From positions 832,001-896,000 of the forward strand of contig OZ224045.1 in the NCBI GenBank assembly GCA_963665325.3: a stretch of DNA of 64,000 nucleotides. The letters run 5' to 3'. Shown one piece after another: positions 16,318-40,613 of the stretch. Under the pieces are notes generated by a model. The model was not told the origin of the DNA. It saw only the letters and a list, made by a program, of their open reading frames with translations, and ran no database searches. This DNA is from Alphaproteobacteria bacterium (GTDB lineage Bacteria; Pseudomonadota; Alphaproteobacteria; Bin95). The number at the start of each line of letters is the position of its first letter. The first letter of the stretch is position 1. The position numbers and the translations under genes were made by a program.

Positions 16318-16474
16318 GGCGGCGCGAACTCCGAACGGCCTTGCCGCCGGCGCGGTTCCGGCGCAGGCGGGAGCATGCACGATAGGAAGCCCGTCGCGCG
16401 CCGTCCGTGCCGGCGGCTATTCCGCCGGGTCCGCAGCTTGGTTCCTGAAATAAGATTATTTTCATACAAAAGTG

Positions 16475-16903
16475 TTGACTCCGGGACCGCCTTGCCTATA
16501 TAGGCCGTGACGAAGCGGCATCTGCGGGCCGCATCCGTTCGCGCCGGCGCGAAAATAAAGTCCCTGAGAAACTGACGGGAGACGTGCGCCCTGCGTCCGG
16601 GCTCGCGCGCGCAGGCGCAATCAGGCGCGCAAACCGCGCCGGCGCCAACGCGCCCGCCTGCGCACGCCCGCGATACGCGCGAAAAAGGGTTCCGCCGCCG
16701 GGAGGCGGGGAACGGGAAGGAGGAACGATGCAGGAGAGACCGGGCATGGCAAGGCAGGCGGCGCCCGGACCATGACAAAACATGACATTTCATGACGACC
16801 CCGGGTTCCCTGGCGGCAGGAACGGGAGAGGAATGAAGGATCGATGCAGGCAAGACAAAATAGGAATATCAATGGAACATGACCAAACATGACATTTCAT
16901 GAC
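16475..16903 (+). repeat. Dispersed structured element, copy 1 (promoter, multi-hairpin leader, RBS, mini-ORF, CATGAC x3; last module duplicated)
   Basis: Shares blocks CCCTGAGAAAC, ACGGGAGA, GCGCAATCAGG, AACCGCGCCGGCGCCAACG, CGCGATACGCGCGAAA, AGGAGGA-N3-ATG and the CATGAC repeats, in order, with the reverse complement of 27901-28579. Confidence 0.85.
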
Positions 16904-16977
16904 ATCCTCGGCGTCCGCTCCGGGAGGCGGTGGAACGCGGTCATGGCCTCATCGGCTCCGGGCCATGAACGGCGGCG

Positions 16978-19074
16978 TCAGTCCTTCCTGTCGCCGAGAA
17001 GGCCCTTCAGGCCGCGGCCGATATCCTTCACGGCGCCCTTCAGCTTGTCCCGCAATTGCCGAACCGCCTGTTCGGGCGATGCAGGGCCCGGTTGCGCCGC
17101 CGCGCCGGGTTTCGGCGGGGCGGTCGCGATCTCCAGGCACTCATTGCCCTCGCCGCCGAGCTCGCCCAGCCCCACGACTGCGGCCGGCGGGAACAGCGCG
17201 ATCCCGACGAGGCCGCCGAGCTTCTTCAGTGCCGCGCCGGCTTCGGGCCGGAATTTCGGGTTGGCGAAGGCGCCCCGGATACGGACCGGCACCGAGATAT
17301 TGAGGGTCGCGGATTTCGCGCGGGGCTCGACGGTGAGGTCGAGTGTCTCCGTCGCGAGGTTTGCCGTCCCCTTCGCGGCGACGGTCGAATATTCGGTGTC
17401 GATTAGAACCGCCCGGCTCGCCGCCCGCCCGTTCTCGATGCCGATGGAGGCGACGGCGCAGTTGACGACCGTCCATTGCTTCCGGCCTGAGAACAGCGTG
17501 CCGAGGACGGCGCTGGCGCCGCCGACCGCCGCATCGAACGCCTCCGTCTTCAGGCGGCCGCTGCCGCCCACGAGCCGGATGTCGCCGTCGAGGCCGGCCA
17601 TGAGCGCGGCGACGGACCCGCCGGAGCCCGCAAGATCGACGCTGGCCCTGGCCTTCCCTTCGAACAGGTCCGTCACGCCGGCCTCCTCCAGCAATCGGCC
17701 GAGGTCGAGTTCCGGAGCCCGGGCCGCAAGGCGGAGGCGCGGCGCCGCGCGCCGCGTATCGAGGTGGAGTTCGCCGTCCACCCGGCTTCCCGCCACAGTC
17801 GCCGAGAACGGTCTTACGGAAAGCGCGCCGTCTTCCAGGCTTATGCGGGCCTGCACCGCGCCGACCGGGACCGGATATCCGGCCAGCCTTTCGACGCTCA
17901 GCGTCAGGTCGAGATCGGCGGCCTTGAGGCCCTCCAGCGGAAGCGGGTCGTCGGGAAACACCCGGTCCTGCCTCACGTTCTTCGGCTTTGCGTCCTTGCC
18001 CGCGGCGGTCGGGCGATCGCTCGCGGCGGCCTTCGACCGCAGCCCGGCAACGTCGATCCCGGTCGACGCCAGCGTGCCGCTCACGCGCGGCCGCGGCCCC
18101 GACAGGACGAGGTCGATCCGGCCGGAAAGGTCGCTGGCGCCGAGCGCGCCCTTCAGATCCTCGAACCGGAACCTGTCGGCGCCGCCCTCGATGCGGGCGT
18201 CGAAGGCGACCGGCCCGAGCTCCGGCAGCCCCGGCCCTGCAAGCGGTGCGAGCGAGGACAGGTCCGCGCCGCGAACCGCCGCCCGGAGGTCCAGGCCCCC
18301 GGCTTTGCCGGGTTCGGCCACCGCGCCGGACAGCCGCGCCTCGAAGCCGAACGCCTTCGCATCGAGCACGAGTTCCAGCGGCCGTCCCGAAGCGATGGCC
18401 GCCAGGGAGCCGACAGTGCCCGAGGCCGAGAACGGGGCCCCGTTCCAGGCGCCGAAGGCATCGATTTCCAGCGGGGCGCCGAAGGACCCCGCCCGCGCCG
18501 ACACCCGCTCGAGTTCGAAGCGCATCTCCTCGCCGCTCCGTGCATCCCTGTAGATCAGGCGCCCCCGGCGGATTTCCACATGATTGAAGATCGGGACCGA
18601 TGGCGGCCCGCCGCCCGTCTCGTCCTTCCGTCCAGCCTCCTCTCCGGAGCGGGCGGGCGCGCCGGACCGGTCGTCCGGAGGCGGCCCGTTCCGCCAGTTG
18701 GACAGGCCGTCGGCATTGGTTTCGAGCAGGATGTCGGGTTCGACCAGGATGAGCCGGGTCACGCGGATATCGCCCGCAAGCAGCGGCAGCAATTCGACCT
18801 CCGCCTCGGCTCGTTCGAGCGCGATCATGGCCGGGCGCGAGCCCCAGTCGGCATTGGCGACGGCGACCTGCTCAACGGTGACGGCGGGCGTGAGCGAGAT
18901 CGACAGGTCGATATCGCCGCCGATGGCGAGGTCGCGGCCGGTCGCCTCGCGAAATTCCGCGGCGATCTCCTCGCGGTAGCTGTTGACGTCGATGGAATAG
19001 AGAACCGCTGCCGCGGCCGCGACGAGGACTGCGACCGCCAGCGCGGCCCATTTCAGCAGGCTGGCGACGCGCAT
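16978..19074 (-). CDS. AsmA family protein
   Basis: N-terminal TM anchor, ATGRDLAIGGDI, VANADWGS, LETNADGLSNW, VNCAVA, VPVRIRG. Confidence 0.9.
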   Translation of the reverse strand: MRVASLLKWAALAVAVLVAAAAAVLYSIDVNSYREEIAAEFREATGRDLAIGGDIDLSISLTPAVTVEQVAVANADWGSRPAMIALERAEAEVELLPLLAGDIRVTRLILVEPDILLETNADGLSNWRNGPPPDDRSGAPARSGEEAGRKDETGGGPPSVPIFNHVEIRRGRLIYRDARSGEEMRFELERVSARAGSFGAPLEIDAFGAWNGAPFSASGTVGSLAAIASGRPLELVLDAKAFGFEARLSGAVAEPGKAGGLDLRAAVRGADLSSLAPLAGPGLPELGPVAFDARIEGGADRFRFEDLKGALGASDLSGRIDLVLSGPRPRVSGTLASTGIDVAGLRSKAAASDRPTAAGKDAKPKNVRQDRVFPDDPLPLEGLKAADLDLTLSVERLAGYPVPVGAVQARISLEDGALSVRPFSATVAGSRVDGELHLDTRRAAPRLRLAARAPELDLGRLLEEAGVTDLFEGKARASVDLAGSGGSVAALMAGLDGDIRLVGGSGRLKTEAFDAAVGGASAVLGTLFSGRKQWTVVNCAVASIGIENGRAASRAVLIDTEYSTVAAKGTANLATETLDLTVEPRAKSATLNISVPVRIRGAFANPKFRPEAGAALKKLGGLVGIALFPPAAVVGLGELGGEGNECLEIATAPPKPGAAAQPGPASPEQAVRQLRDKLKGAVKDIGRGLKGLLGDRKD

Positions 19075-27771: not shown

Positions 27772-28024
27772 CCGACGATCCCCATACCGATCAAGGGCGC
27801 AGTATAGCCGGCCCGTAGAGAAGCGGGAGATACGCGCCGGGGCGGCGTTCCGGTCCGGCAATGCAAGGCAGGCCGGCCCGGGGGCCCACTCCAGCGGGGT
27901 GTCATGAAGTGTCATGTTTTGTCATGAGGCCCGCCGGAAATGTCATGCTTTGTCATGCGGTCCGCCGCGCAAGCGGGGGAGGCGGAAATGAGGTGCGGAA
28001 AGGACGGGCCGGCTCCATGGAAAA

Positions 28025-28060
28025 CCCCTCTCCCGATTGCGGGAGAGGATGGGAGAGGGC
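28025..28060. repeat. REP-like palindrome
   Basis: CCTCTCCCG-attg-CGGGAGAGG-atGGGAGAGGG; related copies at 28217-28249 and, degenerate, at about 34995-35017. Confidence 0.65.
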
Positions 28061-28098
28061 CTCACGGCGTGACGGGTCTTTGCCGGGCTTCGCCCGCC

Positions 28099-28195
28099 GC
28101 CGCACTGAACGCGGTGGACGATACGAATAGCGGCGTTGGCACGGCCGCGCTGAACGCGGCGGACGATGCGAATGGCGGCGTTGGCGCCGCCGCGC
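28099..28195. repeat. 45-bp tandem duplication (two imperfect copies plus a partial third)
   Basis: gccgcactgaacgcggtggacgatacgaatagcggcgttggcacg / gccgcgctgaacgcggcggacgatgcgaatggcggcgttggcgcc. Confidence 0.9.
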
Positions 28196-28216
28196 TTCCG
28201 CTGGCGCGGAAGCGGA

Positions 28217-28249
28217 CCCCCACCCGACCTCCCCCGCGAGCGGGGGAGG
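28217..28249. repeat. REP-like palindrome, opposite orientation to 28025-28060
   Basis: CCCCCACCCGA-CCTCCCCCGC-ga-GCGGGGGAGG. Confidence 0.65.
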
Positions 28250-28683
28250 CGGAAAGAGGGGCAGACGGCTCGCTGGCGGACAGCGTCCGGGACGACGACA
28301 GGGGCGTATTGCTTCATCGGTCCTCCTCCTTGTCCTTCCCGCCGCCGTCCTGCCTGCGGCGGGTCCCTGTTTCGCGCGTATCGCGCGCGGGCGGGGGCGC
28401 CCGTTGGCGCCGGCGCGGTTCGCGCACCTGATTGCGCGCGCGAGGCGACGGACGCACCTCTCCCGTGCGTTTCTCAGGGGGTTTTCGAAAATGACGCCGC
28501 CCGGCCGCACGACGCCGGAGAAGCGGCTCCGGATACCGCTTCTTCCGGCTTCATACTAGCATATTTTCCCTGATGTCAAGCAATTTTGCGAACAAAAAGT
28601 AAAAACACCAGAAATTTTTCAACTCGCAAAGGCGCTCAATCGACGACTCACACCAGCGGTCGTCGATCGGAACCTGTGCCGAC

Positions 28684-28811
28684 TGCCTCCGGACCGCGGT
28701 CAGAAGCGGTCGAACAGGGCTTGCAGCTCTTCGGGGTCGCGGGTGCGGACGGGGCCGAGCATGACGAGGACCCACGCCTTCCGGACGGTCTGGTTGTCGG
28801 CGAGTACCGTG
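28684..28811 (-). pseudogene. Diverged duplicate of the asparaginase 3' end (30434-30561)
   Basis: Colinear and ungapped at an offset of 1750 bp; encodes TVLADNQTVRKAWVLVMLGPVRTRDPEELQALFDRF* versus TVLADNLTVQKARILLMLGLARTKDPEELQAMFERF*. Confidence 0.9.
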
Positions 28812-29078
28812 TGCCGTCCAATCTGCCAAACGAATAGGGCACCTCGACGCATGGGAAGCGCTCCAGTGGGCCGAGTTTACCTTTCTCCAACCCCAACTGG
28901 CGAGCTAGGACCGTCGCACACCGGCGACCCGTCGGTCTTGTAGAGACTATCCGACGAGGTATCCATTGAGACACTTTCCTCCTCATCACCCACAGACATA
29001 ATTCTCCAATCAGAATCTCCGCTACGCCGCAAGGGACTCCCGGCGCCTGCATCGTGTCTATGTCCACTCTCCATTGTT

Positions 29079-30269
29079 TCACTCGACCAGTGGCTCCTCA
29101 TCATAGGGGCAGTAATCTTCCGGTTCAAAGACGTCGATCTCGCCGAGATCAATGTAATAATCTTTAGTGCTGACCTCGACATCTACAAGCGTGATATCTT
29201 CTCTTCCGGTACCTTGGCCTTGGACATCGATCACGATGATCACCTCGGTATCTATGTCTTCTCTAACCTCAATCGTCCGTCCTCCCATAGGTATCGACTC
29301 TTTATCAACTCCGTCCCAAAACGAAAAGTTTACTTCAACTGGTATTTTCACAATTAATACTAACGGCAAGCTTACAACCAGTCCAAGCTCTTCCCCATTC
29401 TCTCGGGGCTCTACTTCGATAATGTCTATCTCATCTTCAAGTGGCAAAGCAACGCTCTCAAGCTCTCCCGCCCAAGCATACAATTCGCATCCGCCCATGG
29501 ACGGAGTGGCATTTGCGTCGAATTCTATGACCTCCACCTTGCTGGTCAAATGCGACATTAAATCCGAGGTTCCATCGACTTCCCCCTCCAACCAATCAAA
29601 AACAGATCTCCTTAAAATCGGCGGCGCATTAGCCACAAGAGCAAGCGCCCGTTCGATGTTCGGCACCAGATAAAGTCGCTCTGAGTTCTTACAAAAAGCA
29701 CTCCAATCACCATCCTTCGAGACAACTAAGATACCGATGTCATGATCCGTCGCCGTTCGTTCTAGTGCGTTGAGAGCGAGTGCATCTGGAAATTCTGTCT
29801 TCTTCTTGCCGGCCCCGAATGGTGCTCGCTTGGCAAAGTAATCTTCGAAAAGCGTCGCGGTATCTACAAGCTCTCTATCGTTCAATATCTCGCATCCTGT
29901 ATCTTTTACGTATACGCTAAATTGCTCCTGCGCCGCTTGGGTTGGATTACGGCCCTTGGTTATCTTGTCCAAGAGTTGATCTCTAGTAGGGTCCTTAGTT
30001 TCAAATACATGAAGCGCTTGACCAATTGCCTTTTTTGCCGACCTCAACGCTTGCGAAGCAGCGTCGTCGAGGTGCCCAATTACTTCTCTAGCGACAGTGT
30101 CAGCCAGCATAAAGCGGAATCCATGACCGCTTAGACGAGCGAGAGATCGAAGCGTTACCGAGTTAAGGTGTAGCTGCTTTTCATCAAATATGTTCGTATC
30201 TATCGTAAGGGCATTAACCTCGCCTGCGGAAAGTGCCGCGCGGAGTCCATCGTCATCAAGTATTGGCAT
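29079..30269 (-). CDS. PIN-domain protein (DUF4935/PIN-like), AT-rich, probably acquired horizontally
   Basis: TIDTNIFD, VAREV, PFG..KKTEFPDALAL, VVSKDGDW acidic tetrad; long acidic C-terminal domain. Confidence 0.8.
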   Translation of the reverse strand: MPILDDDGLRAALSAGEVNALTIDTNIFDEKQLHLNSVTLRSLARLSGHGFRFMLADTVAREVIGHLDDAASQALRSAKKAIGQALHVFETKDPTRDQLLDKITKGRNPTQAAQEQFSVYVKDTGCEILNDRELVDTATLFEDYFAKRAPFGAGKKKTEFPDALALNALERTATDHDIGILVVSKDGDWSAFCKNSERLYLVPNIERALALVANAPPILRRSVFDWLEGEVDGTSDLMSHLTSKVEVIEFDANATPSMGGCELYAWAGELESVALPLEDEIDIIEVEPRENGEELGLVVSLPLVLIVKIPVEVNFSFWDGVDKESIPMGGRTIEVREDIDTEVIIVIDVQGQGTGREDITLVDVEVSTKDYYIDLGEIDVFEPEDYCPYDEEPLVE

Positions 30270-39597: not shown

Positions 39598-40613
39598 CGC
39601 GCTCTTACGGCCTCGCCCGCGTCCCAGGCGTCGATATGGCGGAGCAGGAGCGGAGAGAGCGCGAAGGAAATCCGGTCGGGCGGGAGCGTGTGGGCAAGGA
39701 CGCCGTCCGCTGCCAGCGCCGCCGCCAGACCCTTCGCATCCGGGCGCTCCAGCACGACATGGGCCCCGCGCCGGGCGGGTGGCAGCGGATCGTCCTCGCC
39801 CAGTGCGCCCAGGAAAAGTGCGGCAAGCGTGCGCGCCTTCCAGCCGGCCGCCGCGATATCGATGCCCGCGAACATGTCGAGCGCGCCGTCCAGCGCGGCG
39901 AGCGCCAGCGCGGAAGGCTCCGGCACTGCCTCCAGGGCCGCGCCGAGTTCGCCGGTCGCATGGATCCAGGCGGGGGCGCCGGGTCCGCCGCCAAGGAAAC
40001 CGCAGCCCCGCCCGACCGCCGCTTCGACGCCGGACGGCTCCAGCGCCGCCGGCAATGCACCCGCCGTTTCGGAGACGTCGAAGGCTGCGAGCGCACCGGC
40101 CTCGCGGGCCTGTGCGGCGAGGGCCGCCATGTCCCGAAGCGCGCCCGTCGCCGGATCGAGATGGCGCAGCAGCAGCAGCGCATCCCGGTTGAGTTGCGCC
40201 TCGGGGGCTTCGGTCTCCGTGACGGTCAGGCCTTTCGCCCCGAGCCGTGCCAGCAGGGCGGCGAACTCGCCGGGTAGCGCCAGCACGCGGTTGCGGCCGG
40301 CGGCGCAGGCCGCATCGGCCAGCGCTTCGATCGCATCGTCCGCAGTGGCGGCAAAGCCCAGCAATTCGGACCGGGTCCCCAGCAGCGGCGCCAGCTTCTC
40401 GGCCGTCGCCTCTGCCAGATGCCGGCCGTTCGTGAAGTCTGCGCCCCAATCGACGCGCAGGAAGCCGTCGAGCCGCGCCCGAACCCCGCGGGTGAGCGGC
40501 CCGAGGCGGTCGCTGTCGAAGCGAAGCGTCCCGGCAGGCACCAGGAACTCCTCGCGCAAATAGGCGAGCGGATCGCCGTCATCCAGCGTGACGCAGTCCT
40601 CGCGCGTCGTCAT
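39585..40613 (-). CDS. Kynureninase-like protein lacking the PLP lysine
   Basis: MTTREDC..LD..DPLA..REEF, GFLGGGPGAPAW, RRGAHV, LLLRHIDAWDA follow KynU, but GCGYKYL is replaced by GRGCGFL. Confidence 0.7.
   Translation of the reverse strand: MTTREDCVTLDDGDPLAYLREEFLVPAGTLRFDSDRLGPLTRGVRARLDGFLRVDWGADFTNGRHLAEATAEKLAPLLGTRSELLGFAATADDAIEALADAACAAGRNRVLALPGEFAALLARLGAKGLTVTETEAPEAQLNRDALLLLRHLDPATGALRDMAALAAQAREAGALAAFDVSETAGALPAALEPSGVEAAVGRGCGFLGGGPGAPAWIHATGELGAALEAVPEPSALALAALDGALDMFAGIDIAAAGWKARTLAALFLGALGEDDPLPPARRGAHVVLERPDAKGLAAALAADGVLAHTLPPDRISFALSPLLLRHIDAWDAGEAVRARQEG

What the first reader, a model, noticed from the sequence alone, without database searches (positions are those of the whole stretch)
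16771..16903. CATGAC hexamers at 10-bp period end every module and give stops in all three frames
Seen: CATGAC-aaaa-CATGAC-attt-CATGAC at 16771-16796, again at 16878-16903, and inverted at 27901-27926, with a doublet at 27942-27957. The 10-bp spacing is about one helical turn, so the sites lie on one DNA face like iterons or recombinase/repressor arrays. It also puts TGA in all three frames (16773, 16783, 16793). All three RBS-led ORFs of the element stop on a TGA inside this motif (16728-16775, 16844-16882, 28317-27943). Inference: a protein-binding or recombination site that also caps whatever sequence lies between the leader and the repeat.
Basis: partly seen in the sequence, partly recalled or inferred. 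Interest (0 to 1): 0.75.

Follow-up and report, generated by a model that had tools for sequence, protein, structure and literature searches.

The report
Repeat ending scattered phage-packaging gene cassettes
The three-fold CATGAC repeat is the conserved right end of about 70 small scattered DNA cassettes whose complete copies carry phage-packaging-type (small terminase-like) genes, and it is likely a protein-binding site that would mark host DNA for packaging by the bacterium's own tamed phage particle, with the stop codons being only a by-product.

Summary
The genome has 58 CATGAC triples at 10-bp period (0.0007 expected). 59 of 65 leader cores have a doublet within 1.3 kb downstream on the same strand, and similarity between copies ends about 5-15 nt after the last unit.

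The stops are a by-product: TGA-to-TAA changes were 0 of 227 units, and the RBS-led frame is open no more often than control frames.

Five cassettes encode an intact SF6-type small terminase (dN/dS 0.05 in that domain). Others encode a homologue of the gene just before the large terminase of a single-copy, podophage-like host cluster. That gene is missing from the cluster in 12 of 12 array-bearing genomes checked and is kept in array-free G014. In viral contigs, 5 of 12 such triples lie beside terminase genes (control 5 of 80).

Best reading (0.45): a pac-like terminase-binding site. Binding, cutting and the means of spread are untested, and this genome's large terminase is interrupted. The scan noted this family before, here and in other genomes. 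I found nothing on it in print.

The parts
16438..16502 (+). Copy A left end: AT-rich tract and sigma70-like -35 (TTGACT, 16475-16480) and -10 region. The built-in promoter scan did not call it.
16503..16727 (+). Copy A GC-rich leader with the conserved core (16617-16645), the GCGATACGCGCG motif and an RBS
16728..16775 (+). 15-aa RBS-led ORF with no sign of selection; stops in unit 1 of the first array
16771..16796 (+). CATGAC triple, array 1 of copy A
16844..16882 (+). 12-aa RBS-led ORF of the second module
16878..16904 (+). CATGAC triple, array 2; right end of copy A, convergent with the 3' end of an AsmA-family gene (16978-19074, -)
28550..28600 (-). Copy B left end: TTGTTC, AT-rich tract, -35 TTGACA (28579-28574) and -10 region
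28318..28549 (-). Copy B leader with the conserved core (about 28434-28407) and RBS
27943..28317 (-). 124-aa RBS-led ORF with no Pfam match; variable middle containing hairpin repeats
27942..27957 (-). CATGAC doublet
27901..27926 (-). CATGAC triple; right end of copy B
27881..27893 (-). TGGAGTGGGCCCC, the same word as the ends of a roughly 1.25-kb IS in this genome; follows the array in about 13 cassettes

Best explanation
The CATGACA array is the right end of a family of about 70 scattered promoter-leader-gene-array cassettes, and it is likely the site where cassette-encoded small-terminase-like proteins bind, which would start packaging of host DNA into the bacterium's own podophage-like, gene-transfer-agent-like particle. 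Shown: the anatomy, the linkage of array to leader, the array's end position, two kinds of cargo gene, and the loss of one of them from the host particle cluster. Inferred: (1) the pre-TerL gene is a small terminase, from its position, size and helical-hairpin shape; (2) a ring of helix-turn-helix domains reads the three phased heptamers on one DNA face; (3) the large terminase is recruited and cuts nearby; (4) gene-less copies such as the two in this window work in cis with protein supplied in trans. How cassettes reach new sites is not explained.
For: Linkage and end position. Five intact 326-aa cassette ORFs match Terminase_2 (E 2e-12) and phrog_51. The top fold hits are SF6 small terminase (3ZQQ, 4ZC3, 2CMP; probability 1.0, E 0.01-0.06), and dN/dS is 0.054 over residues 1-110 among the five paralogues. 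A single-copy cluster with portal, capsid, tail tube, large terminase and GTA holin lies at C4:512.6-525.7 kb; its TerL was found in 14 of 16 other genus genomes. The gene just before TerL in array-free G014 is 49-50% identical to the second cassette ORF (E about 1e-12). That gene is missing at the cluster in 12 of 12 array-bearing genomes checked, and present in G014 and in 6 of 6 outside genomes. Of 23 non-cluster copies, 20 follow the leader, 15 have a downstream array and none lies next to TerL. All 14 array-bearing genomes have at least one cargo type, and the 3 array-free ones have no cassette copy. In viral contigs, 5 of 12 CATGACA triples lie within 1.5 kb of TerL or TerS, against 5 of 80 control loci (p=0.003); one, with AAA/TTA spacers, lies 230 nt upstream of a phrog_51 TerS. 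The SPP1 pac site has direct repeats beside the promoters and terS start (PMC4737164, passages).
Against: No binding or cutting was shown. The SF6 DNA-binding domain binds its pac repeats with little specificity (PMC4737164), whereas this heptamer is nearly invariant. RcGTA TerS lacks a DNA-binding domain and no GTA pac sites are known (PMC6854486, passages); the pre-TerL protein also has no HTH and matched no structure. In this genome TerL is split by a DDE transposase after about codon 37. Array-free G003 also lacks the pre-TerL gene. The array lies at the 3' end of terS, not at its start as in SPP1. Doublets alone show no terminase enrichment (3 of 80 vs 5 of 80). The viral test is small, and triples and controls were detected differently (PHROGs vs six local queries and two profiles). 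Genus members are not independent. Packaging does not by itself explain copy gain.
Confidence: 0.45

Rival explanations
1. The array is the end-binding (arm-type or transposase) site of a non-autonomous mobile element moved in trans by an integrase or transposase encoded elsewhere; the terminase-like genes are cargo.
For: The array is exactly the right end. Copies sit at many unrelated intergenic sites, a different cassette type occupies the asmA site in G015, and one clean empty site was found. 7 of 21 mapped G011 cassettes lie at synteny breaks, against 1 of 31 grid controls (p=0.005). An IS-end-like word follows about 13 arrays, and one viral triple sits at an integrase 3' end.
Against: No target duplication and no inverted or second array at the left end. 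No pair of copies in the genome is more than 93% identical. Against intergenic controls the break excess is not significant (3 of 23; p=0.16). Many G000 'empty' sites hold decayed remnants. It does not explain why both cargo types are terminase-related.
Confidence: 0.25
2. The array binds a host regulator of the OmpR/PhoB type, or the cassette's own HTH protein as an autoregulatory or roadblock site, with no role in packaging.
For: The reverse complement TGTCATG resembles the TGTCAT half-site in E. coli pho boxes (PMC9934606, table passages). The cassette protein has an HTH, and SPP1-type TerS is proposed to act as a transcription switch.
Against: The pho boxes seen have an 11-bp period; here 157 doublets are at 10 bp and 1 at 11 bp. 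The distance from the cassette promoter varies from about 0.3 to 1.3 kb. The downstream gene is convergent in 22 of 61 cases and the neighbours are functionally unrelated. Three genomes of the same genus have no arrays.
Confidence: 0.17
3. The array is selected as an all-frame stop that insulates neighbours from translation started at the cassette RBS.
For: 47 of 55 RBS-led ORFs end in or at the array, and 10 mod 3 = 1 gives stops in all frames.
Against: TGA>TAA occurs in 0 of 227 units, while the non-stop C is invariant. Control frames are equally open. In full-length terS copies one frame would suffice.
Confidence: 0.05
4. The array is a neutral slippage repeat carried along in a decaying repeat family.
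For: Unit number varies from 1 to 9, and similar 10-bp microsatellite-like arrays occur in unrelated genomes.
Against: The heptamer is kept while the spacers differ between units and the surrounding copies have diverged to about 70-90% identity. The same word is held across 14 genomes.
Confidence: 0.04

Closest known systems
SPP1/SF6 small terminase (Pfam Terminase_2; PDB 3ZQQ, 4ZC3, 2CMP) and its pac site
   Same: Same HTH and oligomerisation fold at the protein N-terminus; direct repeats and promoters beside the terS gene.
   Different: No phage context, multicopy, with a long acidic/basic tail. The repeats lie at the gene's 3' end, and most copies have no gene. SF6 binding is reported as shape-based rather than repeat-specific.
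Gene transfer agents (RcGTA g1 TerS; PMC6854486, passages read)
   Same: Single-copy, vertically kept head-tail cluster with a small, all-helical gene just upstream of TerL and a GTA holin.
   Different: The cluster here is podophage-like, not RcGTA-type. The pre-TerL gene has moved into many cassettes. Known GTAs are described as lacking pac sites. Particle production was not tested.
PICI/SaPI TerS redirecting helper-phage packaging; pseudo-pac and lateral transduction (recalled; transduction modes also in PMC12946183, passages)
   Same: An element-encoded TerS with its own site would use another element's TerL and capsid.
   Different: No integrase, replication genes or att sites in the cassette; about 70 dispersed copies of 0.4-1.4 kb instead of one island.
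MITEs and other non-autonomous IS derivatives; putative mobile promoters (recalled; named in earlier scan notes, not read here)
   Same: Many short, intergenic, gene-less derivatives of a longer coding element.
   Different: No terminal inverted repeats, no target duplication seen, and the long form encodes no transposase.
PhoB/OmpR-family direct-repeat boxes
   Same: Similar half-site (TGTCAT) in direct repeats.
   Different: 10-bp rather than 11-bp period, three units, and confined to cassette ends.

Membership tests
Phage TerS-pac module (SPP1/SF6 type) | Terminase_2 HTH small subunit | tested here: met
   (5 full-length cassettes; not the two window copies)
Phage TerS-pac module (SPP1/SF6 type) | terS adjacent to terL in a phage genome | tested here: not met
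   All 5 Terminase_2 hits are in cassettes; the two TerL genes found lie elsewhere
Phage TerS-pac module (SPP1/SF6 type) | TerS binds and TerL cuts at the site | not testable with these tools
   needs binding and cleavage assays
Gene transfer agent | Single-copy conserved head-tail cluster without replication or integration genes | tested here: met
   (no such genes among the ORFs listed or scanned)
Gene transfer agent | terS directly upstream of terL | tested here: not met
   absent in 12 of 12 array-bearing genomes checked; present in G014 and 6 outside genomes
Gene transfer agent | Particles that package host DNA | not testable with these tools
   virome contigs cover the whole stretch but cannot show ends or exclude cellular DNA
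PICI / phage satellite | Own integrase, replication genes and att sites | tested here: not met
MITE / IS derivative | Terminal inverted repeats and target-site duplication | tested here: not met
   (one clean empty site only)
MITE / IS derivative | Cognate transposase elsewhere in the genome | tested here: inconclusive
   an IS-end-like word follows about 13 arrays; no systematic search was made
PhoB pho box | 11-bp period upstream of regulated genes | tested here: not met
Alphaproteobacterial LexA (SOS) box (consensus recalled) | GTTC-N7-GTTC at the cassette promoter | tested here: not met
   1 of 61 cassettes (promoter anchoring imperfect)
Known structured RNA | Rfam match or covariation in the leader | tested here: inconclusive
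   no Rfam hit; the core hairpin is invariant without two-sided changes; mean z -2.6 against mononucleotide shuffles

The most novel reading that the evidence does not exclude
A sponge-associated alphaproteobacterial genus has moved the small terminase out of its tamed phage-particle cluster into dozens of self-promoting cassettes, and added a second, DNA-reading terminase. Each cassette ends in a phased pac array, so gene transfer starts at about 70 programmed chromosomal sites: a sequence-directed gene transfer agent, or a new class of selfish element that parasitises one.
Probability: 0.35. Interest if true: 0.9.

Novelty: categorically new. Interest (0 to 1): 0.72.

Why it matters
GTAs are defined by random packaging without start sites (PMC6854486). 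Dispersed pac-like arrays with relocated small terminases would overturn that for one lineage. They would also give a direct test of how terminases choose DNA and of whether selfish elements can bias GTA transfer. Even if packaging is wrong, this is an abundant repeat family (9-171 arrays per genome) with no transposase, which an integrative island uses as its attachment site and which tends to lie at rearrangement breakpoints.

Tried and rejected
Stops as the selected feature: rejected.

Known RNA or tRNA: no Rfam hit; ARAGORN found nothing at either copy.

RcGTA-type (HK97) capsid or Terminase_3 in the genome: none found (weak portal remnant). The Terminase_6 hit belongs to a Mu-like prophage.

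Fold search of the pre-TerL protein: no significant hit in BFVD or PDB. The wide structural search and the complex prediction (TerL with the cassette protein) were not available, so TerL binding is open.

Exact insertion boundaries: relatives are too diverged or rearranged, and at site B the 'empty' genomes may be deletions.

Sequencing runs (contigs only): relatives share copy A, and no joint gave a clean empty allele. A few small RNA-library contigs touch cassettes but cannot show transcription.

The promoter scan called no site at copy A; the promoter reading rests on alignment.

Literature: 8 searches listed no paper describing such cassettes. Only listings were seen except for passages of PMC12946183, PMC9254644 (describes RcGTA-type clusters, not this one), PMC6854486, PMC4737164 and PMC9934606. 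No supplements were read, and subscription journals are not searched.

Full report
OBSERVATION. The arrays, the three-frame TGA and the three ORF ends are exactly as described. In the 5.58-Mb genome there are 157 exact doublets at 10-bp period, against 0-6 at periods 6-9 and 11-19, and 58 triples; 0.0007 triples are expected. No other word exceeds 3 triples at periods 9-12. The unit is CATGACA, with AAA-like then TTT-like spacers.

THE ELEMENT. The two window leaders match 70 loci. Of 65 loci with a recognisable core, 59 have an exact doublet within 1.3 kb downstream; 1 has one upstream and 0 on the other strand. Of 84 doublet clusters, 60 have a core upstream. Ten of the other 24 are one identical word in an IS21-like element, and several others are cassettes split by insertions. 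Each copy reads AT-rich tract, -35/-10-like hexamers, GC-rich leader, RBS, variable middle, array. Similarity between copies ends about 5-15 nt past the last unit in most close pairs, and no pair exceeds 93% identity. By a crude gene caller, the 61 cassettes examined lie between genes, with the downstream gene convergent in 22. Triples occur in 13 of 16 other genomes of the genus (9-171 each) and in 0 of 24 other relatives.

STOPS ARE A BY-PRODUCT. 47 of 55 RBS-led ORFs end in or at the array. But GC-rich middles are open anyway: 43 of 51 in frame, 41 of 51 in frame +2, and 118 of 153 reverse frames (p=0.8 and 0.33). Starts fall evenly in the three phases. Among 227 units, 41 carry one change, none of them TGA>TAA and none at the first C (anchoring on exact units biases towards conservation). 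Selection is on the word, not the stop.

CARGO 1. Five cassettes of about 1.35 kb carry an intact 326-aa ORF ending in the array. Its N-terminus matches Terminase_2 and phrog_51 and folds like SF6 small terminase (E 0.01-0.06, probability 1.0). dN/dS is 0.054 for residues 1-110 and 0.32 for the rest. These are the only Terminase_2 hits in the genome. Multicopy homologues occur in 12 of 16 other genus genomes. Of 20 loci examined, 14 showed the leader core and 13 of those an array.

CARGO 2 AND THE HOST CLUSTER. Following a lead from earlier scan note e1-9892877, I looked for a particle cluster. One lies at C4:512.6-525.7 kb, with an S24 repressor, T7-type portal, capsid, tail tube, large terminase and GTA holin. 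Its TerL is single-copy in 14 of 16 other genus genomes and was found in 6 of 24 outside genomes. In array-free G014, a 93-aa gene overlaps the TerL start and is 49-50% identical to the second cassette ORF. It is predicted to be a helical hairpin without an HTH, like RcGTA TerS (PMC6854486, passages); no fold match was found. At the cluster this gene is absent in 12 of 12 array-bearing genomes checked (G002 and G007 could not be checked), present in G014 and 6 of 6 outside genomes (picked by position; they built the profile), and absent in array-free G003. Elsewhere it is found in 12 of the 13 other array-bearing genomes, up to 19 matches each. Of 23 such loci, 20 follow the leader, 15 have an array (3 misses are contig ends) and none is next to TerL. 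dN/dS is 0.42 for its N-terminal part across genomes. Against current function, this genome's TerL is split by a DDE transposase.

PHAGES USE THE SAME WORD. Twelve viral contigs hold the exact triple. Five lie within 1.5 kb of TerL or TerS (two are related). One ends an HTH gene weakly matching TerS, one ends an integrase, one is an inverted pair near a ParB gene, three appear to be giant-virus contigs (two by GVMAG name, one by its 256-kb size) and one is unassigned. The control (13-bp doublets) gave 5 of 80 (p=0.003; 4 of 11 vs 3 of 78 after merging relatives, p=0.004), but 10-bp doublets gave only 3 of 80. This is suggestive: small, and detected by unequal methods.

MOBILITY. At the asmA site most relatives are empty, while G015 has a cargo-2 cassette and G006 has arrays. 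At site B only G011 of 6 relatives shares the cassette. Of 32 G011 cassettes, 14 are colinear with this genome (mostly filled, one cleanly empty without a target duplication), 7 lie at synteny breaks and 11 could not be mapped. Controls: 1 break in 31 grid positions (p=0.005) and 3 in 23 intergenic gaps (p=0.16). Several G000 counterparts hold decayed remnants, so gain and loss cannot be separated. No mobilising enzyme was identified.

MECHANISM. I commit to a pac-like binding site for cassette-encoded small terminases serving the host particle in trans (0.45). Two unrelated terminase-linked genes in one cassette, the complementary loss from the cluster, and the phage association are hard to explain otherwise. 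Binding, cutting and particle production are inferred. The main objections are the reported sequence-independence of SF6 TerS (PMC4737164, passages), the broken TerL here, G003, and the unexplained spread. Rivals: end site for a recombinase acting in trans (0.25), regulator or autoregulatory site (0.17), stop insulator (0.05), neutral repeat (0.04).

COMPARISON AND NOVELTY. It works like a TerS-pac module or a satellite TerS but fails membership of phage modules, PICIs, MITEs and pho boxes (see tests). Eight literature searches listed no description. The scan's own notes record this family in this and other genomes; they are not independent support.

Noticed in passing
G000 C1:777,139 and 817,130; also C4 about 14,300 and C3 about 1,325,290 (L009, L010): A 40-kb island with tandem tyrosine-integrase-like genes is inserted inside the cassette leader, duplicating ACACGCGATAC; a second copy appears split over two contig ends.
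   Followed up: partly
L089:1781-3595 (G000 C4): A DDE transposase interrupts the particle cluster's large terminase after about codon 37.
   Followed up: yes
L563-L571 (G033, another family): A sister family of multicopy orphan terS-like genes with a similar promoter word, no CATGAC array in the copy read in full, a 10-bp-period GGAA triple inside the ORF in about 5 of 9 loci, and GAAC-N7-GAAC (LexA-like, recalled) upstream of two copies.
   Followed up: partly
window 27881-27893 and about 12 other cassettes: The IS-end word TGGAGTGGGCCCC follows the array; real IS ends sit there in 2 cassettes, so the element end may attract or derive from this IS.
   Followed up: partly
L103, L106, L108, L109: In intact clusters the pre-TerL stop overlaps the TerL start as ATGA (CATGAC in two genomes), a possible origin of the repeat unit; speculative.
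   Followed up: no
G000 C1:462-498 kb: Mu-like prophage with its own large terminase.
   Followed up: no
window 28648-30269: A PIN_12-domain gene lies between the asparaginase gene and a duplicated 3' piece of it, just upstream of copy B.
   Followed up: no
G000 C2 (196 kb): This contig has no cassette, where about 2 would be expected.
   Followed up: no
window 40501-40593 (-): ARAGORN calls an unassignable tRNA-like sequence.
   Followed up: no
L166, L183, L188 (Dyadobacter), L184 (Thermococcus MAG): Long degenerate 10-bp-period ATGACA arrays, some in inverted blocks, in unrelated taxa.
   Followed up: no
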